A model generated the notes under the pieces. It saw nothing but the letters and a program-made list of their open reading frames with translations. It made no database searches and was not told the origin of the DNA. Positions 26,155 through 50,565 of a DNA stretch of 50,565 nucleotides are shown here, one piece after another (within the stretch, counting starts at the first letter, position 1; every line of letters starts with the position of its first letter). A program made the translations under genes and the position numbers. Source of the stretch: Rickettsiales bacterium (GTDB lineage Bacteria > Pseudomonadota > Alphaproteobacteria > Rs-D84); the NCBI GenBank assembly GCA_031256175.1, contig JAIRRC010000016.1, forward strand, positions 1 to 50,565, given 5' to 3'.

Positions 26155-27153
26155 ATGGAAATGACAACTTTCGCGATAAGCAGCCTTGGAAACATAGGCG
26201 AGGCCGTCTATGAAACCTATATCAAAGACTGCGAATACTGCATGGACAACGGCGAAGAAATGGACATGAAGCTGGTCGGAATAATCCGCCGCAACGCCAG
26301 GTCCGGCGAAACTTATTTCGACACCCCGGTCGTAAGCGACGTCGGCAATCTGGAAGCATCGCCGGACGTCGTCATTTGCTGCGCGCCTTCCGACGTCGTC
26401 ATGACCTATGTCTATAAATACGTAGGCGCCGGATATTCCATCGTCGACTGCTACGACGCGCACGAGAATATCTACGACAACCACGGGAAGATAAGCGCGA
26501 TTGCGAAAAAGAACCGCTGCGTCGCCCTTCACACGACCGGATGGGACCCGGGTCTGTATTCGACCGAACGCAGCATCGCATACCGCATCAATCCGTTCAC
26601 CAAGCCGACCACCAACTACGGCGTCGGGCGCAGCATGGGACACACGACCCAGGCCAAGGGAATAATGGTCGAATTCGGAATCACCGACCCAAGGGCCGTT
26701 TCCATAACCAGCCACTTCAAGACCGAGGCGGGAATTCTTGTCCCGGGCAAGCATCAGCGCGACCTTTATATCGAGCTGCCGGACTGGTTCGCCCAAAAAG
26801 ACGAGCTGAAAGCCGCGCTTCTTTCCGACGACTATTTCGCGACCATAACGAAAAGCGGAAAGGAAAAGCCCCAGCACACCGACATCCATGTCGTGGACAG
26901 CATCGCGCCTTACGACACGATGCGCCACGGCGGATATATGCTTAGCGATGGGGGGGGGTATGCCAAGATGGAAGTTGCTCTGGACGGCGACAATCCGACC
27001 ATGACATCGCGCATGATGTATTCCGGCGCCAGGGCAGTCGCAAGGCTGGAAAAGGAAATGCGCTTCGGCTGCTATCTGGATCCGCAAATCGCGCCGCTGG
27101 ACTTCGTCAAGGGCGAGGCGCTGAAAGACCGCATGCAGCGCGTGTTCCTGTAA
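26155..27153 (+). CDS. ddh: meso-diaminopimelate D-dehydrogenase-like protein
   Basis: GWDPGLYS, TNYGVGRSMGHT, HGG, DNPTMTSRMM resemble Ddh motifs. Confidence 0.8.
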   Translation: MEMTTFAISSLGNIGEAVYETYIKDCEYCMDNGEEMDMKLVGIIRRNARSGETYFDTPVVSDVGNLEASPDVVICCAPSDVVMTYVYKYVGAGYSIVDCYDAHENIYDNHGKISAIAKKNRCVALHTTGWDPGLYSTERSIAYRINPFTKPTTNYGVGRSMGHTTQAKGIMVEFGITDPRAVSITSHFKTEAGILVPGKHQRDLYIELPDWFAQKDELKAALLSDDYFATITKSGKEKPQHTDIHVVDSIAPYDTMRHGGYMLSDGGGYAKMEVALDGDNPTMTSRMMYSGARAVARLEKEMRFGCYLDPQIAPLDFVKGEALKDRMQRVFL

Positions 27154-27154
27154 T

Positions 27155-27736
27155 CTAGAAGTTCCTAAGCAGCGCAAGGCCGAAGAAATTATACGAGCCG
27201 TTGTTCGGCGACAAGTTCCCATTCGAAAAATGCTGGGTGAATATTTCGGCCGCCCAGCTTTCCGATATTCCATACCCGACAAACATCTTCAATCCGAACA
27301 TATAGCGCGAATCCTGCCTTTCGTCCCTTTCGTATTTCATGAAGGCGCCGATTCCGCCCCCTAAATAAAAATCGTTCCATGTCATGACCGCCGCGTCCAT
27401 CGACAGGCCCGCCTGCGGCCAGGAATAATTCTTCCAGCATTCGTCGTCCTTGTCGCCCCAGCCCATCGTCGTGCCGACGTGTATGTTCTGCCGCGCCGGA
27501 AGCCTGAAAAACGTCGCGGGCTGGCTGTATTGGAACATCGTCCAGCCGAACGGCGTTATGTCCCAAAAATCGGGCTGGATGCTGCCGCCGCCCGTGCCTT
27601 GGCCGAAATAAATTCCCATCTGGTTGTCGGTTCCTTTGAAAAATGGCGCAGGCTCTGCGCTTAGAAAATGGAAGTCCGCGCGGGCCGCGCTAATTCCCAT
27701 TGCAAAAGCCGCCGAAAATATTATAATTCTTCTCAT
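27155..27736 (-). CDS. Acyloxyacyl hydrolase / PagL-like outer-membrane beta-barrel
   Basis: Signal peptide; QHFSNGNLSPNNGSYN His-Ser motif; C-terminal Phe. Confidence 0.75.
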   Translation of the reverse strand: MRRIIIFSAAFAMGISAARADFHFLSAEPAPFFKGTDNQMGIYFGQGTGGGSIQPDFWDITPFGWTMFQYSQPATFFRLPARQNIHVGTTMGWGDKDDECWKNYSWPQAGLSMDAAVMTWNDFYLGGGIGAFMKYERDERQDSRYMFGLKMFVGYGISESWAAEIFTQHFSNGNLSPNNGSYNFFGLALLRNF

Positions 27737-34446: not shown

Positions 34447-34941
34447 ATGACGCGCGGAATCCTTGTATATCCGGGGCTTGGCAAATCGACGCTTTGCGCG
34501 GCCAATCCGAAATTCGAAGATTTCGAAACGCGCATATTCAAGGATATGAATCTGAAAGAATTCATCGGCAGGGACGACTATCCGAACTTTCGCGGAACGC
34601 CGCTTGGCCCGATGAATCCGGATTTTCCGGACAATATGATAGAATATGCGCGGCGCGAATTGGCGGCCGGAAGAATTCTGCTAACTGTTCCGAAAAAGGA
34701 CACTTATGACGCCTGCCGCATGCTTGGCATAGACGATTATGTGTTCGTGATGCCCGACCGGGAAAGGTTGGCGCAGCTGGAACAGGACTATATCGCCCGC
34801 GGCGACGGCGCGAAATACATAGCGGACAATCTGGCCAAAAGATACGATGAAACATTGGAATATGCGAAGGCGAACGGCAAGAAAGTCGTCTTCCTAAAAC
34901 CCGGCGAATACCTGGGCGACATCGTCGAAAACTTAATATAA
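34447..34941 (+). CDS. Hypothetical P-loop nucleotide-kinase-like protein
   Basis: VYPGLGKST Walker A; FPDNMIEY and YIARGDGAKYI mirror the 6778..7281 product. Confidence 0.75.
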   Translation: MTRGILVYPGLGKSTLCAANPKFEDFETRIFKDMNLKEFIGRDDYPNFRGTPLGPMNPDFPDNMIEYARRELAAGRILLTVPKKDTYDACRMLGIDDYVFVMPDRERLAQLEQDYIARGDGAKYIADNLAKRYDETLEYAKANGKKVVFLKPGEYLGDIVENLI

Positions 34942-34952
34942 AAAATCCGCTA

Positions 34953-35450
34953 TTATAACCGCTTCCTGTAATACAGCACCAGGACAGGTTCGTCTTCCGG
35001 AGAATACTTTTCCTTGTTCCACATGATGAATTCCGTGAAACCCAAATGGAAATAAATTTGCATATTTTTGACATCTTTCGGTTCGACGCCGATTGTTAAA
35101 TTTTTTATTCCGTGCCCCAAGGCCCATGCTTCTGCGAATCGGACAAGGCCGCTTGCTATGCCTTTGCCTTGATATTTCTCATCGACCCTTAAAGCACAGA
35201 CGTTCGCAGTATCTTTATTTGCAAGACTGCCATTGCCGTTAAGCTGTCCGCTTGCCGGGTCCAGAGCCAAGGTTCCCACGCCGACAATGTCTTCTTTGTC
35301 CAAGGCGCAGAAAGTCTTAATCAAGCCGTTCCGATTTTCAAGGATGGAGCGTTTTTTCCATGCGGACCACCTGTCGTCGCCTGCATTCTCGGCAATATCC
35401 TTATCCCATCTAAGTTCCAAATCTTGAAGGCTTGCTTCTTTACAGACCAT
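34953..35450 (-). CDS. GNAT family N-acetyltransferase
   Basis: LRVDEKYQGKGIASGL motif A; FYFHLGF-like motif B. Confidence 0.9.
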   Translation of the reverse strand: MVCKEASLQDLELRWDKDIAENAGDDRWSAWKKRSILENRNGLIKTFCALDKEDIVGVGTLALDPASGQLNGNGSLANKDTANVCALRVDEKYQGKGIASGLVRFAEAWALGHGIKNLTIGVEPKDVKNMQIYFHLGFTEFIMWNKEKYSPEDEPVLVLYYRKRL

Positions 35451-35474
35451 AATACTAAATCCCTTTTCCCGCCA

Positions 35475-36233
35475 TTACAATTGTTTTCGGACAATCCAGA
35501 AAATGGTGTCTGCGGAAAACTCCCTGACCGCATCGCTTTCATCGGCGAAGTCAGGACGATACGCGTGTTCCATTATTTCAAAATTTCCGCGCTTTAAGAA
35601 TTCTTTCACTTCGTCCATGCTTGGAATATGGATTATATTCAAAACCGCATCCGGCGTGTCTTCCGGATAAAGCCGGTCGCCGAACTTTTCAAGACGCGGG
35701 TCTTGGGTCCCATTTTCAAAACGCGTTTTTTGCTCTGCCCAGAATTCGGCATGCTTTCCGTTTTCATCGCGCTTATGCGCGGTGAAAATGAATTTTCCCC
35801 CCGGTTTCAACACGCGGCGGACTTCATCCAACACCTTGTCGCGGTTTTTCTGTTCGGGAATGCACATCAGGCCGTTGAACGAAAACACCGCAACGTCGAA
35901 GGAATCGCCGTCAAAAGGCAGACTGCGCGCGTCGCCCTGCATAAACTCGATGGCGAGATTATGTTCGCGCGAGTAGTTTTTCGCGAATTCGACAAATCTG
36001 TCCGACAAATCCAACCCGACGATATCTTCATATCCCAGCTTGAATAGATTGATTGTTGTGCGCCCGCAGCCGCAACCGAGGTCCAAAATCCTATCGGTTT
36101 TATTTATATGCTTTTCAAATATAATTTTTTCGGATTTCCACAGACCAATTTTTTCAACCGCCTCGCCATAATGAGCTATGTTCGCATCGGTTTCATAATG
36201 GTTTTTAGTGGTTTCGATTGTTATTTTGCCCAT
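35475..36233 (-). CDS. Class I SAM-dependent methyltransferase
   Basis: ILDLGCGCGR, GLDLS, GDARSLPF..SFDV, VLKPGG. Confidence 0.92.
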   Translation of the reverse strand: MGKITIETTKNHYETDANIAHYGEAVEKIGLWKSEKIIFEKHINKTDRILDLGCGCGRTTINLFKLGYEDIVGLDLSDRFVEFAKNYSREHNLAIEFMQGDARSLPFDGDSFDVAVFSFNGLMCIPEQKNRDKVLDEVRRVLKPGGKFIFTAHKRDENGKHAEFWAEQKTRFENGTQDPRLEKFGDRLYPEDTPDAVLNIIHIPSMDEVKEFLKRGNFEIMEHAYRPDFADESDAVREFSADTIFWIVRKQL

Positions 36234-36298
36234 TTACGGCCCTTTCGTATTTTTACGATTATAGCAAGCGATTCCCGCAAGTCCAACGAAAAAGCCAC

Positions 36299-36330
36299 TT
36301 GACATTATTGACGGGGGGGGGGGGTAGACT
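36299..36330 (+). promoter_or_regulatory. Promoter with a G12 homopolymer in the -35/-10 spacer (candidate phase-variable)
   Basis: TTGACA-TTATTGAC-G12-TAGACT upstream of the beta-barrel gene. Confidence 0.7.
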
Positions 36331-36392
36331 GCTAGGAAAATATGCGCACAGCCGCGCGTATTCGCTTGTAAAACAAACAAAAGGATAAAAAT

Positions 36393-37037
36393 ATGAAAAA
36401 ACTGCTTCTAATATCAACGGCGCTGACCGCGGTTTCTAGCGGCGCTTTCGCTTTTGAAACCAATATCGGCGACATTTCGCCGTATGTTTCCGGCCGAATC
36501 GGCCTCCAAATTCTAACCGCCGATGGCGCTGACCAGTCGGCTACCGGAAGCGTCAAGGCCGGCGCAATCGGCGCGCGCTGGAAGGGCGAAGAATTAAACC
36601 TTCGCGGCGAATTCGAATTCTCGAACGGGACATACGTCAACTATGGCGAGGACGCGGACATAGTCAACGGAAGCAATGTCGTTATCGGGCACGTCAGCTT
36701 TCCCGAAGAGTATAAGATGAACACTTATATGCTGAACGCCTATGCCGACTTCTTCACGAACTATAAGATAAAGCCGTATGTCGGCGCCGGTATCGGCGCG
36801 GCTTCGACCGACGTCAAATTATGGGTGGAAGAAAGAATCGGAAGCCTTGACATGGTAAAAATCCCGGTCGCGGAATTTTCCAAAAACTCGTTCATCTACG
36901 GCATATACGGCGGAATCGGATTCGACGTGATAACCGGCCTGGCGGTGGATTTGGGCGTGCGCTACAACGCCTTCACGATAGAAAAAGTCGATTTGTCGAT
37001 GGTGTCCGTCAATGCCGGCGCCCGGCTGACGTTCTAA
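36393..37037 (+). CDS. Outer-membrane beta-barrel protein (opacity/OmpA-transmembrane-like)
   Basis: Signal peptide; LRGEFEFS, YMLNAYADF..IKPYVGAGIG, VDLGVRY; C-terminal Phe. Confidence 0.85.
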   Translation: MKKLLLISTALTAVSSGAFAFETNIGDISPYVSGRIGLQILTADGADQSATGSVKAGAIGARWKGEELNLRGEFEFSNGTYVNYGEDADIVNGSNVVIGHVSFPEEYKMNTYMLNAYADFFTNYKIKPYVGAGIGAASTDVKLWVEERIGSLDMVKIPVAEFSKNSFIYGIYGGIGFDVITGLAVDLGVRYNAFTIEKVDLSMVSVNAGARLTF

Positions 37038-37065
37038 GCCGAATATCCATAAACCGGCATGCCGA

Positions 37066-37095
37066 AACCCCTGTCTATTATAATAGACAGGGGTT
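37066..37095. terminator. Perfect 30-bp palindrome between convergent genes
   Basis: AACCCCTGTCTATTA|TAATAGACAGGGGTT. Confidence 0.7.
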
Positions 37096-37114
37096 ATTTA
37101 TTACTTAGATGGCC

Positions 37115-37624
37115 CTAGTCAGCCCGACCATGACAATAAGAAAAAAAGGGCTTTTTTTGTGCGGTTATTTCTGTGAAGTCTTCGTCATCTTGCATGGGTT
37201 CGAAGAGTTTGAAGTTTTCTTTCCATCTTTCCGGCGAATAAAAATGCCCCGGGTTCGACTTGTTGCGCGCCATCAGGTTTTCCAAGGCCTTTTCCGGCGA
37301 GCATTTTATGCTGTAATATTTGCAGTTGGCGCCCAGCGACGCGGCCCAGGCCCTGTTCGAATCCCTTGTTTCGCGTTTCCAGGAACCGGCGTCGAAAATC
37401 ACGTCCCGGCCGGATTTCACGAGTTGTTCGGTTTTTTCTTTCGCGATTTCGAATAATTTTTTGCGTGCTTCTTTGTCCAATCCGATGGCGGGTTTGCCGC
37501 TGTTAAGTTCCGCATGAAGCTTGTCTGTGCGGATTATCGGCGCGTCGATTTCCTGCGCAAGCGCCGCCGCAAATTCGCTTTTACCGAAAGCGACAAATCC
37601 GTGCAAGAAATGTATAGTCGGCAT
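37115..37624 (-). CDS. AAA_33-like predicted kinase
   Basis: LHGFVAFGKS Walker A; IRTD; VIFDAG..KRETR; RN lid. Confidence 0.8.
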   Translation of the reverse strand: MPTIHFLHGFVAFGKSEFAAALAQEIDAPIIRTDKLHAELNSGKPAIGLDKEARKKLFEIAKEKTEQLVKSGRDVIFDAGSWKRETRDSNRAWAASLGANCKYYSIKCSPEKALENLMARNKSNPGHFYSPERWKENFKLFEPMQDDEDFTEITAQKKPFFSYCHGRAD

Positions 37625-37626
37625 GT

Positions 37627-38259
37627 TTATATGTCTTTCTTCGCAAGTTTATTATTCAACGCTTCAATAACAAATATGCAGTTGTTGTTATTCACGTCGC
37701 CGCTGACGCTTGCGTTTTGAATATCCGAATAAGATTTTATCTTTTCCAAATCCTTATCGATTCCTGTGATTAAATATGGTTTGTCTTTTATACTATACAA
37801 TAAAGCATGATATATTATGTTTCCGATTTTAGGTTCGTCGCCGAAGAATTGCGCCTGCGGCGCCCCGGGGTCAATCATGTGATATTTGCCATCGGAAAGT
37901 TTTATTCCAGCAATTACGTGCCCGGCCACGACATCCACCCTCTTACGCGGTTTGTTCACGCTGTCGTAATAATCACTATATGTTTTCATGGATATTGTGA
38001 TAATTCCAACGGCGTCGATTCCTTTTTCCTTCGCAAGATACAAAAAAGTCTTGGCCCATCCTGTGCAGCCGACCGCATTCGCGGCCCTTTTCTTCAATAT
38101 TTCAGCAGCCCCAAGCGAGAATTTCGTATCTATCGGACGTTCGTTCCTTGATTCGGCAAATTTTTCGACGTCCAGGTTTTTATCTACAATTCCGGTTTCC
38201 TTATTATGCATAATATCCAGAATTTCTTGAACAATCGATAAAGTTCGTTTGTCTTCCAT
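37627..38259 (-). CDS. Transglutaminase-like (Cys-His-Asp) protein
   Basis: VGCTGWA...LAKEKGIDA, AGHV, MIDP; AT-rich. Confidence 0.65.
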   Translation of the reverse strand: MEDKRTLSIVQEILDIMHNKETGIVDKNLDVEKFAESRNERPIDTKFSLGAAEILKKRAANAVGCTGWAKTFLYLAKEKGIDAVGIITISMKTYSDYYDSVNKPRKRVDVVAGHVIAGIKLSDGKYHMIDPGAPQAQFFGDEPKIGNIIYHALLYSIKDKPYLITGIDKDLEKIKSYSDIQNASVSGDVNNNNCIFVIEALNNKLAKKDI

Positions 38260-38270
38260 GTTCGGCCTTT

Positions 38271-39389
38271 TTAAGGATTGGTGAGGCGGAGCTCGATACG
38301 GCGGTTCTTTTGAAGGTCGGCGGGCGTATTGCCCAGCGCCACAGGATACATTTCGCCGAAGCCCGTCGGCGCCAACAAACGCCTATCAATTCCGTTCTTC
38401 ACAAGCTCGTCCACGACGCTGCGCGCACGCATAAGCGACAACTGCGTATTATCCTTCAATTCGCTGCCCGGTTTCACCGGAACGTTATCGGTATGTCCGT
38501 CGACGCGGATTATCCATTCGACATTCTTCGGAATCGTCGTATAAATTTCCTTTATTACGCCCGCGATTTGTTTCAGCTGCGCCTTGCCCTTGTCCGAAAT
38601 TTTCGCGCTTCCCTGCGGGAACATGATGTCGCTGGGCAAAGTGAACCGGTCGTCGTCCATTTTTATCATGCCCGTGTCGCCCAACGATTTTTTGATGGCG
38701 GTATAAAACATGGATTGATATTCGCGCACGTCGGCCTGCTCGGCCAGTTTATCCGCCAGCGCGCGGTTGAAGCGGTTTGAAAGCTCGACATACTGGACTT
38801 CGTTTTCGGCCGCCTTTTGTTCCGACACCGCGAGCGCGTTCGACAGGCGCGAGATTTCTTCCGAAAGGTTCCGCATTTGCACGGCGCTCATTTCCCGTTC
38901 CGAACTTTTTGTTTCGGATTCCGCGCGCAATGTTCCGCGAAGGTTTTCAAGTTCTTCCAGAAGGCGCCGTTTTTCTATGTCGGACGCGGCCGCATCGTCC
39001 CGCATTATTTGCAGCTGCGCGCGCTGTTCGTCGAGCGCGCTTGTGTCGGTTTGGGTTCGTTCAAGCTCCAACAGGGCGTTCGCAAGCGCGCGGTCTTTCG
39101 CGGCGGCGTCGATTTCAAGGCGCGCGGCGGTTTCGGCGACTATCGCTTTCTGGCGCAGAAGCTCGTCCTGCGACGCGCGCATTTTCATATTGTCCGCCGC
39201 CAGGCGCCGGGCGCGCTCGGTAAGTTCGGTAAGAGCCGTATGGTCGGGCGTCGCGCCCTTCATCATGAATTTCGCGGACGACGCTATGACCACGAAAACG
39301 ATAAGCAGAAACATCAGGATTATGGTCAGGTTCGAGAACAAGTCGACGAACCCGGGCCAGATATTAACCGGCTCGCGCTGTCTTTGCAT
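38271..39389 (-). CDS. MotB/OmpA-like peptidoglycan-binding membrane protein with long coiled coil
   Basis: NIWPGFVD TM segment; RVDGHTD, NTQLSLMRARSV, KNRRIE. Confidence 0.9.
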   Translation of the reverse strand: MQRQREPVNIWPGFVDLFSNLTIILMFLLIVFVVIASSAKFMMKGATPDHTALTELTERARRLAADNMKMRASQDELLRQKAIVAETAARLEIDAAAKDRALANALLELERTQTDTSALDEQRAQLQIMRDDAAASDIEKRRLLEELENLRGTLRAESETKSSEREMSAVQMRNLSEEISRLSNALAVSEQKAAENEVQYVELSNRFNRALADKLAEQADVREYQSMFYTAIKKSLGDTGMIKMDDDRFTLPSDIMFPQGSAKISDKGKAQLKQIAGVIKEIYTTIPKNVEWIIRVDGHTDNVPVKPGSELKDNTQLSLMRARSVVDELVKNGIDRRLLAPTGFGEMYPVALGNTPADLQKNRRIELRLTNP

Positions 39390-40305
39390 TGTCCCTCTCT
39401 TCCTTCTTGAATTCCTTGACGGAATCGATGGCGATGCTAAGGCGCCCGATTGCGGCGTTCATCTGCTTGTCCCGCTCGCGTATGTGCTTCGAAAGTTCGT
39501 TCACGGATTTCGTCATCTTGTCGGTGCTGCGCGAAAGCTCGAACGCGGCGGTCTGGACGTAGGGCAGAATCGTTTCCTCGCCGCTTTCGGGCTGGGACAG
39601 ATAGCCGAAAAGCTTGGTATAGTTCGAAAGGTTTTCTTCCAGCTCGCGGAAAATCGCGTTCTGCGCCAGGGTCGTTTGAAGCGCCAAGAATCCGACCATA
39701 AGCGAACCCGCAAGGCCCAAGAACGAACTGCTGAACGCCGTGCCCATTCCCGCCAGCGGCGCTGTAAGACCGGACCGCATCGCTTCAGTCGCGGCGGCGA
39801 AGTCGGTTCCGAAATCCATGCCGTCGACCAGCATGCCGAACGCGCCGATGGTGTGAAGCAGGCCCCAAAACGTGCCCAAAAGCCCAAGGAAGACCAATAT
39901 GTTCGTCGTGTATCGGTTCTGCTCGCGCGTGTCTTCGAAGCGGCCCATGATGATGTCCAAAAACGCGTTCAAGGTTTGGGACGAGATGTAGGGCTTGTGC
40001 TGGACGCGCACCGCCGTCAGCATTTTCGCGACCGGCCGCAGGACGAATGGCGGCAGCTGCGGAACCGCGGCGCCCGGCCGCGCATAGAAGAAATTCTTCA
40101 TCCATCTGTATTCCGGCACCAGGCGGAACACGTCCAGAAAGCAGGTAAAGGTGCCGAACGCCGCGGCGCCCAAAATCGCGCCGTTAAGCCAGATGTTCAC
40201 CATGGCTATGTTCAAAAAATCGTCCCAAAACAGGATGATAATCGCGACGATAAGCGCCGTGAACAGGACCATCCGGTTAAGCGTCTTGTGAAACTGGTTG
40301 TTCAT
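39364..40305 (-). CDS. MotA/TolQ/ExbB proton-channel family protein
   Basis: LVFLGLLGTFWGL and GMGTAFSSSFLG TM motifs; overlaps the MotB-like partner. Confidence 0.85.
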   Translation of the reverse strand: MNNQFHKTLNRMVLFTALIVAIIILFWDDFLNIAMVNIWLNGAILGAAAFGTFTCFLDVFRLVPEYRWMKNFFYARPGAAVPQLPPFVLRPVAKMLTAVRVQHKPYISSQTLNAFLDIIMGRFEDTREQNRYTTNILVFLGLLGTFWGLLHTIGAFGMLVDGMDFGTDFAAATEAMRSGLTAPLAGMGTAFSSSFLGLAGSLMVGFLALQTTLAQNAIFRELEENLSNYTKLFGYLSQPESGEETILPYVQTAAFELSRSTDKMTKSVNELSKHIRERDKQMNAAIGRLSIAIDSVKEFKKEERDNAKTARAG

Positions 40306-40401: not shown

Positions 40402-41052
40402 ATGAAAAAGCTTTTAATGATTTTATCGGCGTTGGTTTTTATTTCCAATCCCGTTTTGGCGGACGAAGAGGCCGACGACGAATTCGACTTGAAATTGGAC
40501 AAGTATATATCGGTGAAATTGGGCGCGACCAAATGGCTTGATTCGTATGGCAATCCGCGTTCCGACGCTTGGGCCGTCGCGTTAGGCGTAGGCAAGGAAC
40601 TGGACGATTTCGCCATCCGGGCCGAGCTGGAGCTTTCAATGCAAGGCTTCGCGAAAGATTCGGAATGGAATATCGACGCCGGAAACCGGGGCTATTATAA
40701 TTTGGAAAACACCACCGGCGTTTTTCTTTTGAACGGATATATTGATTTGATGCCCGGGTATAGGGCGCGGCCTTATTTCAGCCTTGGTCTGGGATTTGTG
40801 GCGGCCGACAATTTCGTGGATTCGGAATCGAGATGGACTTACGGGGGCGGCGGCTGGGGCTATGAATCCGAATGGGGCGGCGAAACGACGTTTTCATTCG
40901 CGTCAAGCTTGGGCGCCGGTGTCAGCGTCAATTTGATTCACGGCTTCGCGCTGGACGCTGGCGCAAGATTCATATTCACAAGCAAAGACACAGAAAACGA
41001 AAACAGCAAAACGATGTTCAATGCGTCCTTGGGGTTAAGGTATACTTTCTAA
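40402..41052 (+). CDS. Outer-membrane beta-barrel protein (paralogue of 36393..37037)
   Basis: Signal peptide; IRAELELS, FLLNGYIDL..RARPYFSLGLG, ALDAGARF, GLRYTF. Confidence 0.85.
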   Translation: MKKLLMILSALVFISNPVLADEEADDEFDLKLDKYISVKLGATKWLDSYGNPRSDAWAVALGVGKELDDFAIRAELELSMQGFAKDSEWNIDAGNRGYYNLENTTGVFLLNGYIDLMPGYRARPYFSLGLGFVAADNFVDSESRWTYGGGGWGYESEWGGETTFSFASSLGAGVSVNLIHGFALDAGARFIFTSKDTENENSKTMFNASLGLRYTF

Positions 41053-41100: not shown

Positions 41101-41185
41101 GCGGATATGGCGAAATTGGTAGACGCGCAGCACTAAGGATGCTGTGTCGAAAGACTTGGGAGTTCGAGTCTCCCTATCCGCACCA
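41101..41185 (+). tRNA. tRNA-Leu(AAG)
   Basis: Acceptor GCGGATA/TATCCGC, discriminator A, CCA; anticodon arm CAGCA-CTAAGGA-TGCTG; variable arm GTC-GAAA-GAC; T-arm GGGAG-TTCGAGT-CTCCC. Confidence 0.93.
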
Positions 41186-41300
41186 GAAGGCCTGTGCGTG
41201 CCTTCCCTCGTTCCCTCGCGACGCGCACATCTTTTCGCCGCTAACAACGCGGCTCAAAGTGTGCTTATTCGCTCGTGCTCGAGTCTCCCTATCCGCACCA
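41186..41300 (+). mobile_element. tRNA-linked 93-bp element plus exact 22-bp duplicate of the tRNA-Leu 3' end
   Basis: 41279..41300 is identical to 41164..41185; homologous to 6561..6654. Confidence 0.75.
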
Positions 41301-41305
41301 TGTTT

Positions 41306-41379
41306 GGCTCGGTGGCAGAGTGGTTATGCAGAGGACTGCAAATCCTTGTATGCCGGTTCGATTCCGACCCGGGCCTCCA
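41306..41379 (+). tRNA. tRNA-Cys(GCA)
   Basis: Acceptor GGCTCGG/CCGGGCC, discriminator T, CCA; anticodon loop CTGCAAA; one C-A mismatch in the T-stem. Confidence 0.95.
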
Positions 41380-41496
41380 AAATTTTGAAGTGCGCCATCC
41401 ATCGTTCTCTCGCGACACGCACATCAAAAAATCCCCTAATAACGGGGATTTTCTGTGCGCTTATACGCTCGTGCTCGATTCCGACCCGGGCCTCCA
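41380..41496 (+). mobile_element. tRNA-linked 95-bp element plus exact 22-bp duplicate of the tRNA-Cys 3' end
   Basis: 41475..41496 is identical to 41358..41379; shares all conserved blocks with the other two copies. Confidence 0.75.
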
Positions 41497-41500
41497 AAAT

Positions 41501-50445: not shown

Positions 50446-50448
50446 AAT

Positions 50449-50565
50449 TTATTCTTCAACGCATTCGCTTTGGTCGGCATTTGGTATCGTATTATCAGTG
50501 CATGTATGGCAGGTCATTTCGCCTTCGGCAGAGACGCTATTATTTGCACACGCATTTACCCCCCC
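50449..50565 (-). CDS. C-terminus of a Cys-rich protein entering from the right edge
   Basis: Manual translation GGVNACANNSVSAEGEMTCHTCTDNTIPNADQSECVEE*, followed by a terminator. Confidence 0.6.
   Translation of the reverse strand, partial: GGVNACANNSVSAEGEMTCHTCTDNTIPNADQSECVEE

What the first reader, a model, noticed from the sequence alone, without database searches (positions are those of the whole stretch)
36299..37037. G12 tract in the promoter spacer of an outer-membrane beta-barrel gene: likely phase variation
Seen: TTGACA (36299..36304), then TTATTGAC, then G12 (36313..36324), then TAGACT. The spacer is currently 20 bp; G9 would give 17. A second -35-like TTGACG (36308) has an 11-bp spacer and would reach 17 at G18. 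Established: homopolymer tracts in promoter spacers tune Neisseria porA and Bordetella fim expression. Inference: slipped-strand ON/OFF or graded control of a surface antigen, with this allele probably low or OFF. A paralogue without a tract lies at 40402..41052.
Basis: partly seen in the sequence, partly recalled or inferred. Interest (0 to 1): 0.65.

Follow-up and report, generated by a model that had tools for sequence, protein, structure and literature searches.

The report
Poly-G promoter switch for surface protein
An uncultured termite-gut alphaproteobacterium has a run of 12 or more G's between the two promoter boxes of a small outer-membrane barrel gene; this is the classic layout of a slippage-driven on/off switch, known from Neisseria and others, but switching could not be shown here.

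Summary
A monocistronic gene (36393-37037) follows 68 nt downstream. It encodes a signal-peptide-bearing 8-stranded beta-barrel (Pfam Opacity/OMP_b-brl; AlphaFold pLDDT 92; best folds NspA, OmpA, OmpX, Ail). G12 is the longest homopolymer in the window (about 0.01 expected by chance). Sigma-70-type consensus promoters are enriched in this organism.

The tract length is not resolved. The only public run that holds this genome gives a left contig ending in G14 and a right contig starting with G12. This is the only contig junction in the 30 kb examined that is not a normal 30-nt overlap. This could be real heterogeneity, since a minor strain co-exists in the sample. It could equally be Illumina or PCR stutter. 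Raw reads are not held, so I cannot tell which.

Modelled spacers give promoter-competent geometry at G7-11 and again at G16-20, and none at G12-15. "OFF in this allele" is therefore not established. No close relative exists for comparison, and more distant homologues have no tract. A second homopolymer (C22 or longer) ends the contig.

Verdict: a plausible new member of the porA/opc-type promoter-spacer phase-variation class.

The parts
36299..36304 (+). -35 box A, TTGACA (perfect consensus)
   Evidence: Read directly. One of only 13 TTGACA hexamers on both strands of the window. It pairs with TAGACT at a 15-19 nt spacer for G7-11.
36308..36313 (+). -35 box B, TTGACG (5/6), offset 9 nt from box A; its last base is the first G of the tract
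   Evidence: It pairs with TAGACT at a 15-19 nt spacer for G16-20, and with GAAAAT for G5-9.
36313..36324 (.). Poly-G tract: 12 in the window, at least 14 in an independent contig of the same run
   Evidence: Logan contigs of run X1 break here without the usual 30-nt overlap.
36325..36330 (+). -10-like hexamer TAGACT (4/6, with A2 and T6)
36336..36341 (+). Alternative weak -10-like hexamer GAAAAT
   Evidence: It would be usable only with TTGACG and short tracts (G5-9).
36339..36362 (+). Hairpin AATATGCGC-acagcc-GCGCGTATT, starting 1-2 nt after the inferred transcription start; a possible 5'-terminal stabiliser or operator
   Evidence: 9-bp stem, overall z -1.27, not significant. Its function is inferred only.
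36381..36385 (+). Shine-Dalgarno sequence AAGGA, 7 nt before the ATG
   Evidence: Read directly.
36393..37037 (+). OMP1: a 214-aa outer-membrane 8-stranded beta-barrel (NspA/Opa/OmpX-like), with a signal peptide and a C-terminal Phe
   Evidence: Pfam Opacity scores 35.5 bits (cut-off 21) and OMP_b-brl 35.0 bits (cut-off 28.7). AlphaFold2 pLDDT is 92.2. Foldseek best hits are NspA, OmpA, OmpX and Ail. There is a weak match to the Rickettsia Adr adhesin model.
37066..37095 (.). 13-bp-stem hairpin between the convergent genes OMP1 (+) and the AAA_33 kinase gene (-); it acts as a terminator and makes OMP1 monocistronic
36258..36285 (-). Separate divergent promoter-like site TGGACT-16-TATAAT (with TG extension) for the methyltransferase gene; it does not include the tract
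   Evidence: 10/12 match.
35475..36233 (-). Divergent class I SAM methyltransferase gene (small-molecule type, not a DNA methylase)
40402..41052 (+). Distant paralogue OMP2 (26% identity) with no homopolymer upstream

Best explanation
The poly-G run is a hypermutable spacer inside the sigma-70-type promoter of a monocistronic gene. That gene encodes a small surface-exposed outer-membrane barrel of the NspA/Opa/OmpX/Ail fold. The proposed mechanism is as follows:

1. Slipped-strand mispairing during replication adds or removes G's.
2. This changes the distance, and the rotational phase, between the -35 box (TTGACA, or the second box TTGACG 9 nt downstream) and the -10 box TAGACT.
3. RNA polymerase can use the promoter only when the spacer is near 17 nt. 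The cell lineage therefore switches between no, low and high OMP1 expression, reversibly and at random.
4. In a termite gut this would let part of the population escape whatever targets this surface protein: phages that use it as a receptor, grazing or attachment by protists, or host factors.

What is shown: the sequence layout, the protein class, the monocistronic unit, the use of consensus promoters in this organism, and an unresolved tract length in the only dataset. What is inferred: the transcription start, biological slippage, the dependence of expression on length, and the selective agent.
For: 1. The layout is exactly as described. The tract spans -80 to -69 relative to the ATG. [quoted passage not shown]
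2. G12 is a strong outlier: it is the longest homopolymer in the window, with about 0.01 expected.
3. This organism uses consensus promoters. There are 22 sites matching 10/12 or better against about 6 in shuffles (3.07 per strand), several of them just upstream of genes or tRNAs. With 8-10 G's the OMP1 site would be one of them.
4. At the assembled length no plus-strand promoter-like site with a 16-18 nt spacer exists anywhere in 35900-37400. The flanking boxes are therefore the only candidates.
5. The product is a high-confidence 8-stranded outer-membrane barrel of the adhesin/surface-antigen type. This is the gene class usually put under such control.
6. In run X1 the left contig ends in G14 and the right contig begins with G12, and no contig spans the tract. 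All the other contig junctions examined (window 20001-50565) are standard 30-nt overlaps, and the coding G9 was assembled straight through. Contig breaks at poly-G/C tracts are the known signature of phase-variable loci in Illumina assemblies (PMC4235727).
7. A second long homopolymer (at least C22) ends the same contig. This organism therefore tolerates or maintains long G/C runs, as genomes with contingency loci do.
8. The tract is absent upstream of a 44%-identical homologue and of more distant homologues. It is therefore a lineage-specific addition rather than part of a conserved promoter, as is typical of contingency loci.
Against: - No raw reads, no second sample and no close relative exist in the collections searched. 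Tract-length variation has therefore not been shown.
- The G12 versus G14-or-more discrepancy and the contig break could come entirely from Illumina dephasing or PCR stutter at a long G run, or from an assembler's gap closure.
- Both observed lengths (12 and 14 or more) fall in the modelled gap G12-15, where no promoter geometry fits. That is either an OFF state or a sign that the promoter model is wrong.
- TAGACT matches the -10 consensus at only 4 of 6 positions, and the transcription start is not mapped.
- A minor strain is present in the sample. Two fixed alleles could mimic within-clone switching.
Confidence: 0.55

Rival explanations
1. The tract is real but effectively static, or neutral for expression. 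The apparent length differences would be technical (Illumina dephasing, library-PCR stutter, assembler gap closure). OMP1 would be driven by a promoter or activator that does not depend on the TTGACA/TAGACT spacing, or would be permanently silent.
For: Only contig-level data exist. Illumina assemblies commonly break at G/C runs of 8 or more (PMC4235727). Both observed lengths give no consensus geometry. The -10 box matches only 4/6. Promoter-like matches are common by chance at the looser 9/12 level (4 found against 1.8 expected).
Against: A 12-14-nt G run is very unlikely by chance. It sits exactly between a perfect -35 and a -10-like box, in front of a surface-protein gene. The coding G9 in the same genome assembled cleanly. 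Runs this long are intrinsically unstable in every bacterium tested (established knowledge), so true stasis would itself be unusual.
Confidence: 0.25
2. The two lengths are fixed alleles of two co-existing strains. This would be polymorphism over evolutionary time, not rapid within-clone switching.
For: A minor haplotype (5 SNPs at 34660-34715, depth 5 against 15) shows at least two strains of this organism in the sample.
Against: If two clean alleles were each well covered, a de Bruijn assembler would normally give a bubble or a 30-nt-overlap junction like the one at 34630-34745. It would not give two dead ends inside the run. Between-strain length polymorphism is also what slippage produces, so this is a slower version of the same mechanism.
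Confidence: 0.1
3. The tract controls the divergent methyltransferase, or both genes, as the TA repeats do in the overlapping hifA/hifB promoters of Haemophilus influenzae. Alternatively, the join across the tract is an assembly chimera.
For: The intergenic region is divergent. The two Logan contigs meet only in the G run.
Against: The methyltransferase has its own 10/12 promoter at 36285..36258. Its -35 lies 27 nt from the tract and would not be moved by a length change. Against a chimera: an independent assembly spans the site; depth is similar on both sides (11.5 against 14.6); both contigs face each other with G runs; and a related termite MAG keeps groEL and the motA/motB-like pair within 3 kb. 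Two-colour poly-G read-tail artefacts would not put G's 5' of genomic sequence on the right-hand contig.
Confidence: 0.05

Closest known systems
Neisseria meningitidis porA promoter poly-G tract (van der Ende et al. 1995/2000; listed among transcriptional switches in PMC4235727)
   Same: A G homopolymer lies between the -35 and -10 hexamers of an outer-membrane protein gene. Its length sets the spacer and gives high, intermediate or no transcription. Tracts of similar size occur (12G in the example table).
   Different: PorA is a 16-stranded trimeric porin of a betaproteobacterial human commensal and pathogen, and its switching is proven by experiment. Here the product is an 8-stranded barrel in an uncultured termite-gut alphaproteobacterium, there are two tandem -35 boxes, and nothing has been tested.
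N. meningitidis opc (opcA) promoter poly-C tract (Sarkari et al. 1994; PMC3447861)
   Same: The promoter contains a homopolymer and drives a small adhesin-type outer-membrane barrel. A change of one base (C11 to C12) raises expression. The tract is long (10-15 nt).
   Different: OpcA is a 10-stranded barrel. Its promoter lacks a canonical -35 (my knowledge). The organism and niche differ.
Treponema pallidum tpr genes (tprE/G/J operons, tprL) with promoter poly-G (Giacani et al. 2007; PMC3656149)
   Same: Poly-G runs of 15-17 nt are flanked by sigma-70 -35 and -10 signatures. The -10 reads TAGACA, nearly the TAGACT seen here. They lie upstream of predicted outer-membrane proteins, and length modulates promoter activity.
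   Different: The organism is a spirochaete pathogen, the Tpr proteins are large, and regulation also involves CRP.
Bordetella pertussis fim2/fim3/fimX 'C-stretch' (PMC1891110)
   Same: A long promoter homopolymer (C10-C18) has a length that tunes transcription of a surface structure gene, and it is polymorphic among strains.
   Different: The C-stretch spaces an activator (BvgA) site from the -10, not a -35 from a -10. The genes encode fimbrial subunits.
N. meningitidis nspA promoter poly-A (PMC6389960)
   Same: NspA is the best structural match of OMP1. Its expression also depends on a promoter homopolymer (5A low, 6A high).
   Different: The tract is short, and the authors found no evidence of phase variation. 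It is a fixed allele difference, which corresponds to the 'static polymorphism' rival here.

Membership tests
Promoter-spacer simple-sequence-repeat phase variation (porA/opc/fetA type) | A homopolymer of about 8 nt or more lies between the -35 and -10 elements of the promoter that drives the gene | tested here: inconclusive
   At sequence level the feature is met: TTGACA-N8-G12-TAGACT, 69-80 nt upstream of the ATG, with no competing promoter-like site. The transcription start is not mapped, and no RNA run holds the locus.
Promoter-spacer simple-sequence-repeat phase variation (porA/opc/fetA type) | Tract length varies within a population or between close strains | tested here: inconclusive
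   The window has G12. A Logan contig of the same run has at least G14. No contig spans the tract, and the junction is unlike all the other junctions examined. This cannot be separated from sequencing or PCR stutter. No other sample or close relative exists.
Promoter-spacer simple-sequence-repeat phase variation (porA/opc/fetA type) | Expression level depends on tract length, and switching is reversible and frequent | not testable with these tools
   Only a geometric model is available: spacers of 15-19 nt at G7-11 and G16-20, and none at G12-15.
Promoter-spacer simple-sequence-repeat phase variation (porA/opc/fetA type) | The controlled gene encodes a surface-exposed or surface-modifying product | tested here: met
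   The product has a signal peptide, an 8-stranded barrel with long extracellular strands and a C-terminal Phe. Pfam Opacity and OMP_b-brl score above their cut-offs. Best folds are NspA, OmpA, OmpX and Ail.
Small 8-stranded outer-membrane beta-barrels (Pfam OMP_b-brl PF13505 / Opacity PF02462) | The profile score exceeds the curated cut-off | tested here: met
   Opacity scores 35.5 bits against a cut-off of 21. OMP_b-brl scores 35.0 bits against 28.7.
Small 8-stranded outer-membrane beta-barrels (Pfam OMP_b-brl PF13505 / Opacity PF02462) | The fold is an 8-stranded antiparallel barrel, with an N-terminal signal peptide and a C-terminal aromatic residue | tested here: met
   The AlphaFold2 model has pLDDT 92.2 and pTM 0.82, with eight long strands plus one loop hairpin. 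Foldseek probability is 1.00 to 1p4t (NspA), 1qj9 (OmpX), 3qra (Ail) and 1bxw (OmpA). The sequence starts MKKLLLISTALTAVSSGAFA and ends ...ARLTF.
Rickettsia Adr adhesins (NCBIfam NF052636) | The profile score exceeds the curated cut-off (210 bits) | tested here: not met
   The score is 35.6 bits. This is a distant resemblance only, and OMP1 is not a member.

The most novel reading that the evidence does not exclude
The switch has two ON windows. Two -35 boxes lie in tandem 9 nt apart (TTGAC-ATTA-TTGAC), so the promoter would be usable at about G8-10 and again at about G17-19, with an OFF trough between. A tract that drifts long could then regain function without shrinking back. OMP1 would also be one of several long G/C contingency tracts in this genome (G12-14 or more here, C22 or more at the contig end). 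That would make a free-living or protist-associated termite-gut alphaproteobacterium a 'contingency-locus' organism like Neisseria or Campylobacter.
Probability: 0.15. Interest if true: 0.6.

Novelty: new member of a known kind. Interest (0 to 1): 0.4.

Why it matters
Homopolymer-driven phase variation is documented almost entirely in cultured pathogens of vertebrates. A convincing case in an uncultured gut alphaproteobacterium of an insect would show three things. First, the same trick is used in invertebrate gut symbioses. Second, phages, protists or host factors exert on-off selection on this surface protein. Third, metagenome contig breaks at G/C runs are a cheap marker for finding such loci. 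There is also a practical warning: the tract length printed in a metagenome assembly (12 here) should not be used to predict an expression state.

Tried and rejected
- **Read-level tract lengths.** Only run X1 holds the locus, and it is kept as contigs, not reads. Laying contigs at 80% likeness added only an unrelated 582-nt contig.
- **Other samples or strains.** An exact search for the left flank plus G6 in JGI metagenome contigs gave 0 hits. An alignment-based locus search gave one distant locus at 30% identity.
- **Close protein relatives.** The word-indexed search found nothing above 31% identity. The exhaustive search found relatives at 50% and 44% identity. The 50% relative sits on a 671-nt contig with only 23 nt upstream. 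The 44% relative has no tract. Three distant homologues have none.
- **Synteny through groEL.** The relatives are gut Alphaproteobacteria MAGs (groEL 71-74% identical). None carries an OMP1 orthologue or any G/C run of 8 or more near groEL.
- **Known RNA element in the leader.** Rfam found only three tRNAs in the window. The leader hairpin is not significant.
- **Prophage or Lom-like origin of OMP1.** There were no PHROG hits for OMP1 and no phage structural genes nearby.
- **Other repeat types.** No tandem repeats typical of contingency loci were found.
- **Failed look-ups.** Two encoding-contig look-ups failed, probably because the recorded gene starts differ. One paper id was not held.
- **Two-colour poly-G read-tail artefact.** I considered and rejected this. 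Such tails follow adapter sequence and lie 3' of the read, whereas the right-hand contig has the G run 5' of genomic sequence, and the contig-end tract reads as poly-C after genomic sequence.

Full report
**1. What is in the sequence**

Positions 36296-36330 read CAC-TTGACA-TTA-TTGAC-GGGGGGGGGGGG-TAGACT. The features are:
- TTGACA at 36299-36304.
- A second -35-like hexamer, TTGACG, at 36308-36313.
- G12 at 36313-36324.
- TAGACT at 36325-36330.

The TTGACA-TAGACT spacer is 20 nt and would be 17 at G9. The TTGACG-TAGACT spacer is 11 nt and would be 17 at G18.

G12 is the longest homopolymer in the window. The only other G/C runs of 8 or more are a G9 inside a diaminopimelate-dehydrogenase-like ORF and the truncated C run at the contig end. 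With 26.6% G, about 0.01 runs of 12 or more are expected on both strands of 50.6 kb (my arithmetic).

**2. The transcription unit**

- The tract ends 68 nt before the ATG at 36393, which is preceded by AAGGA at 36381-36385.
- The ORF (36393-37037) is followed by a 13-bp-stem hairpin at 37066-37095. This hairpin lies between the ORF and a convergent AAA_33 kinase gene, so OMP1 is monocistronic.
- Upstream, a SAM-dependent methyltransferase gene of the small-molecule type (35475-36233) runs the other way.
- It has its own 10/12 promoter-like site, TGGACT-16-TATAAT, at 36285..36258. This site lies outside the tract and would not be moved by a length change.
- At the assembled length the standard scan finds no plus-strand promoter-like site with a 16-18 nt spacer anywhere in 35900-37400.
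- Consensus sigma-70-type sites are enriched in this window: 22 sites at 10/12 or better against about 6 in shuffles. This organism therefore uses such promoters.
- A 9-bp hairpin (36339-36362) starts 1-2 nt after the inferred start site. It is not statistically significant, and no Rfam family matches the leader.

**3. The product**

- OMP1 (214 aa) has a signal peptide (MKKLLLISTALTAVSSGAFA) and ends in Phe.
- It scores above Pfam's cut-offs for Opacity and OMP_b-brl.
- With a 49-sequence alignment it folds with pLDDT 92.2 into eight long strands plus a loop hairpin.
- Its best structural matches are NspA, the OmpA transmembrane domain, OmpX and Ail.
- Sequence-level PDB hits are Opa60 and NspA.
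- The Rickettsia Adr adhesin model is matched only weakly: 35.6 bits against a cut-off of 210.
- The 'paralogue' at 40402-41052 belongs to the same family but is only 26% identical. It has no tract.

**4. Organism and context**

The only public run that holds the sequence is a termite-gut metagenome. GroEL is 71-74% identical to gut Alphaproteobacteria MAGs, including Candidatus Enterousia, rumen RUG/RGIG bins and a termite-derived MAG (Nt197P3bin78).

OMP1 lies in a block of lower G+C (34.5-38.4 kb, 0.43-0.51 against 0.55-0.61 in the flanks). This block lies between groEL and a motA/motB-like pair. The relatives do not share the block, and it shows no phage signature.

**5. Is the tract length variable?**

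This is the crux, and it can only be addressed indirectly.
- In Logan's k=31 assembly of the same run, the left contig ends ...TTGAC + G14. The right contig begins G12 + TAGACT. No contig spans the run, even at 80% likeness.
- Across window 20001-50565, every other listed junction where consecutive Logan contigs abut is a standard 30-nt (k-1) overlap. One of these is a clean SNP bubble at 34630-34745. The coding G9 is crossed without trouble.
- Reads with at least 14 G's therefore exist, while the window assembler wrote 12. No single length gave a solid path of 31-mers at about 12-15x depth.
- This is what a mixed-length population gives. It is also what Illumina dephasing and PCR stutter give at long G runs. 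A review notes that 22 of 31 poly-G/C tracts of 8 or more lay at contig ends in meningococcal Illumina assemblies (PMC4235727).
- A minor strain is present in the sample, so two fixed alleles are a further possibility.
- Raw reads are not held, and no other sample, JGI contig or close relative contains the locus.
- The true length, and hence the predicted ON/OFF state, is unknown.

**6. Geometry model**

| -35 / -10 pair | Tract lengths giving a 15-19 nt spacer | Length giving 17 nt |
|---|---|---|
| TTGACA / TAGACT | G7-11 | G9 |
| none | G12-15 | n/a |
| TTGACG / TAGACT | G16-20 | G18 |
| TTGACG / GAAAAT (weak) | G5-9 | G7 |

Both observed values (12, and 14 or more) fall in or above the trough. 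A tract a few bases longer than 14 would be ON through the second box.

**7. Comparative evidence**

- A 44%-identical homologue has no tract.
- The 50%-identical homologue lies on a contig too short to show its promoter.
- The other homologues examined, all about 30% identical, have no homopolymer upstream.
- The tract is therefore a lineage-specific addition, as contingency tracts usually are. No comparative test of variability is possible.

**8. Explanation and rivals**

The best explanation is a porA/opc-type promoter-spacer contingency locus that controls a surface barrel protein (confidence 0.55). The rivals are:
- A real but functionally static tract whose apparent heterogeneity is technical (0.25).
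- Two fixed strain alleles (0.10).
- Control of the divergent gene, or an assembly chimera (0.05).

Against a chimera:
- An independent assembly spans the site.
- Depth is similar on both sides.
- The two contig ends face each other with G runs.
- The related termite MAG keeps groEL and the motAB-like pair close together.

**9. Comparison with known systems**

- The layout matches N. meningitidis porA (poly-G between -35 and -10).
- It resembles opc, where a C11-to-C12 change raises expression (PMC3447861).
- It resembles the T. pallidum tpr promoters, which have a poly-G of 15-17 nt between -35 and a TAGACA -10 (PMC3656149).
- It resembles, more loosely, the Bordetella fim C-stretch (PMC1891110).
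- The best structural match of OMP1, NspA, is itself tuned by a promoter poly-A, though without phase variation (PMC6389960).
- Two defining features of the class were inconclusive here: a mapped promoter and demonstrated length variation. Length-dependent expression is untestable with these tools. Only the surface-product criterion is met.

I therefore file this as a candidate new member of a known kind, not a proven one.

**10. Score**

The mildly new elements are the host (an uncultured insect-gut alphaproteobacterium), the tandem -35 boxes that predict two ON windows, and a second very long homopolymer in the same contig. Interest is 0.4.

Noticed in passing
window 50559-50565 (contig end); L085 7640-7661: The window ends in C7, but the Logan contig of the same run continues to C22 and stops there. 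This is a second very long G/C homopolymer in the genome, and it breaks both assemblies. On the minus strand the poly-G is followed by ...VNACANNSVSAEGEMTCHTCTDNTIPNADQSECVEE*, with a stop near 50446 and then a hairpin. The run may lie inside the 3' part of a Cys-rich ORF or upstream of a tiny one.
   Followed up: partly
window 26950-26958: A G9 run lies inside a diaminopimelate-dehydrogenase-like ORF (26155-27153) and encodes Gly-Gly-Gly. It is in frame, and it was assembled straight through without variation in run X1.
   Followed up: yes
window 41101-41500: tRNA-Leu(aag) and tRNA-Cys(gca) are each followed about 95 nt later by a partial copy of their own 3' end (41280-41300 and 41478-41497). 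Each copy is preceded by the shared motif TTATnCGCTCGTGCTCGA, and the spacers between share TCGTTCyCTCGCGACrCGCACATC. This is an unexplained repeated module. Logan contigs fragment here, and one carries an extra C after 41247.
   Followed up: no
window 34630-34745: A minor haplotype with 5 SNPs (depth 5 against 15) shows at least two strains of this organism in the sample.
   Followed up: partly
window 34500-38400: A block of lower G+C (0.43-0.51 against 0.55-0.61 in the flanks) lies between groEL and a motA/motB-like pair. It holds a hypothetical gene, a GNAT acetyltransferase, a SAM methyltransferase, OMP1, an AAA_33 kinase and another hypothetical gene. Related MAGs do not share it, and it has no phage signature.
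   Followed up: partly
window 27155-27736 (-): A third small outer-membrane-barrel-like ORF (193 aa, ending in ...LLRNF) has 40%-identical tandem copies next to groEL in the termite MAG L013. It has no homopolymer upstream.
   Followed up: no
window 38271-40305 (-): A motA/motB-like pair is conserved next to groEL in the related termite MAG. The B component has a long coiled-coil region and an OmpA domain (NCBIfam PRK09039 'peptidoglycan-binding protein'). The A component shows only a faint ZorA resemblance, far below the cut-off.
   Followed up: no
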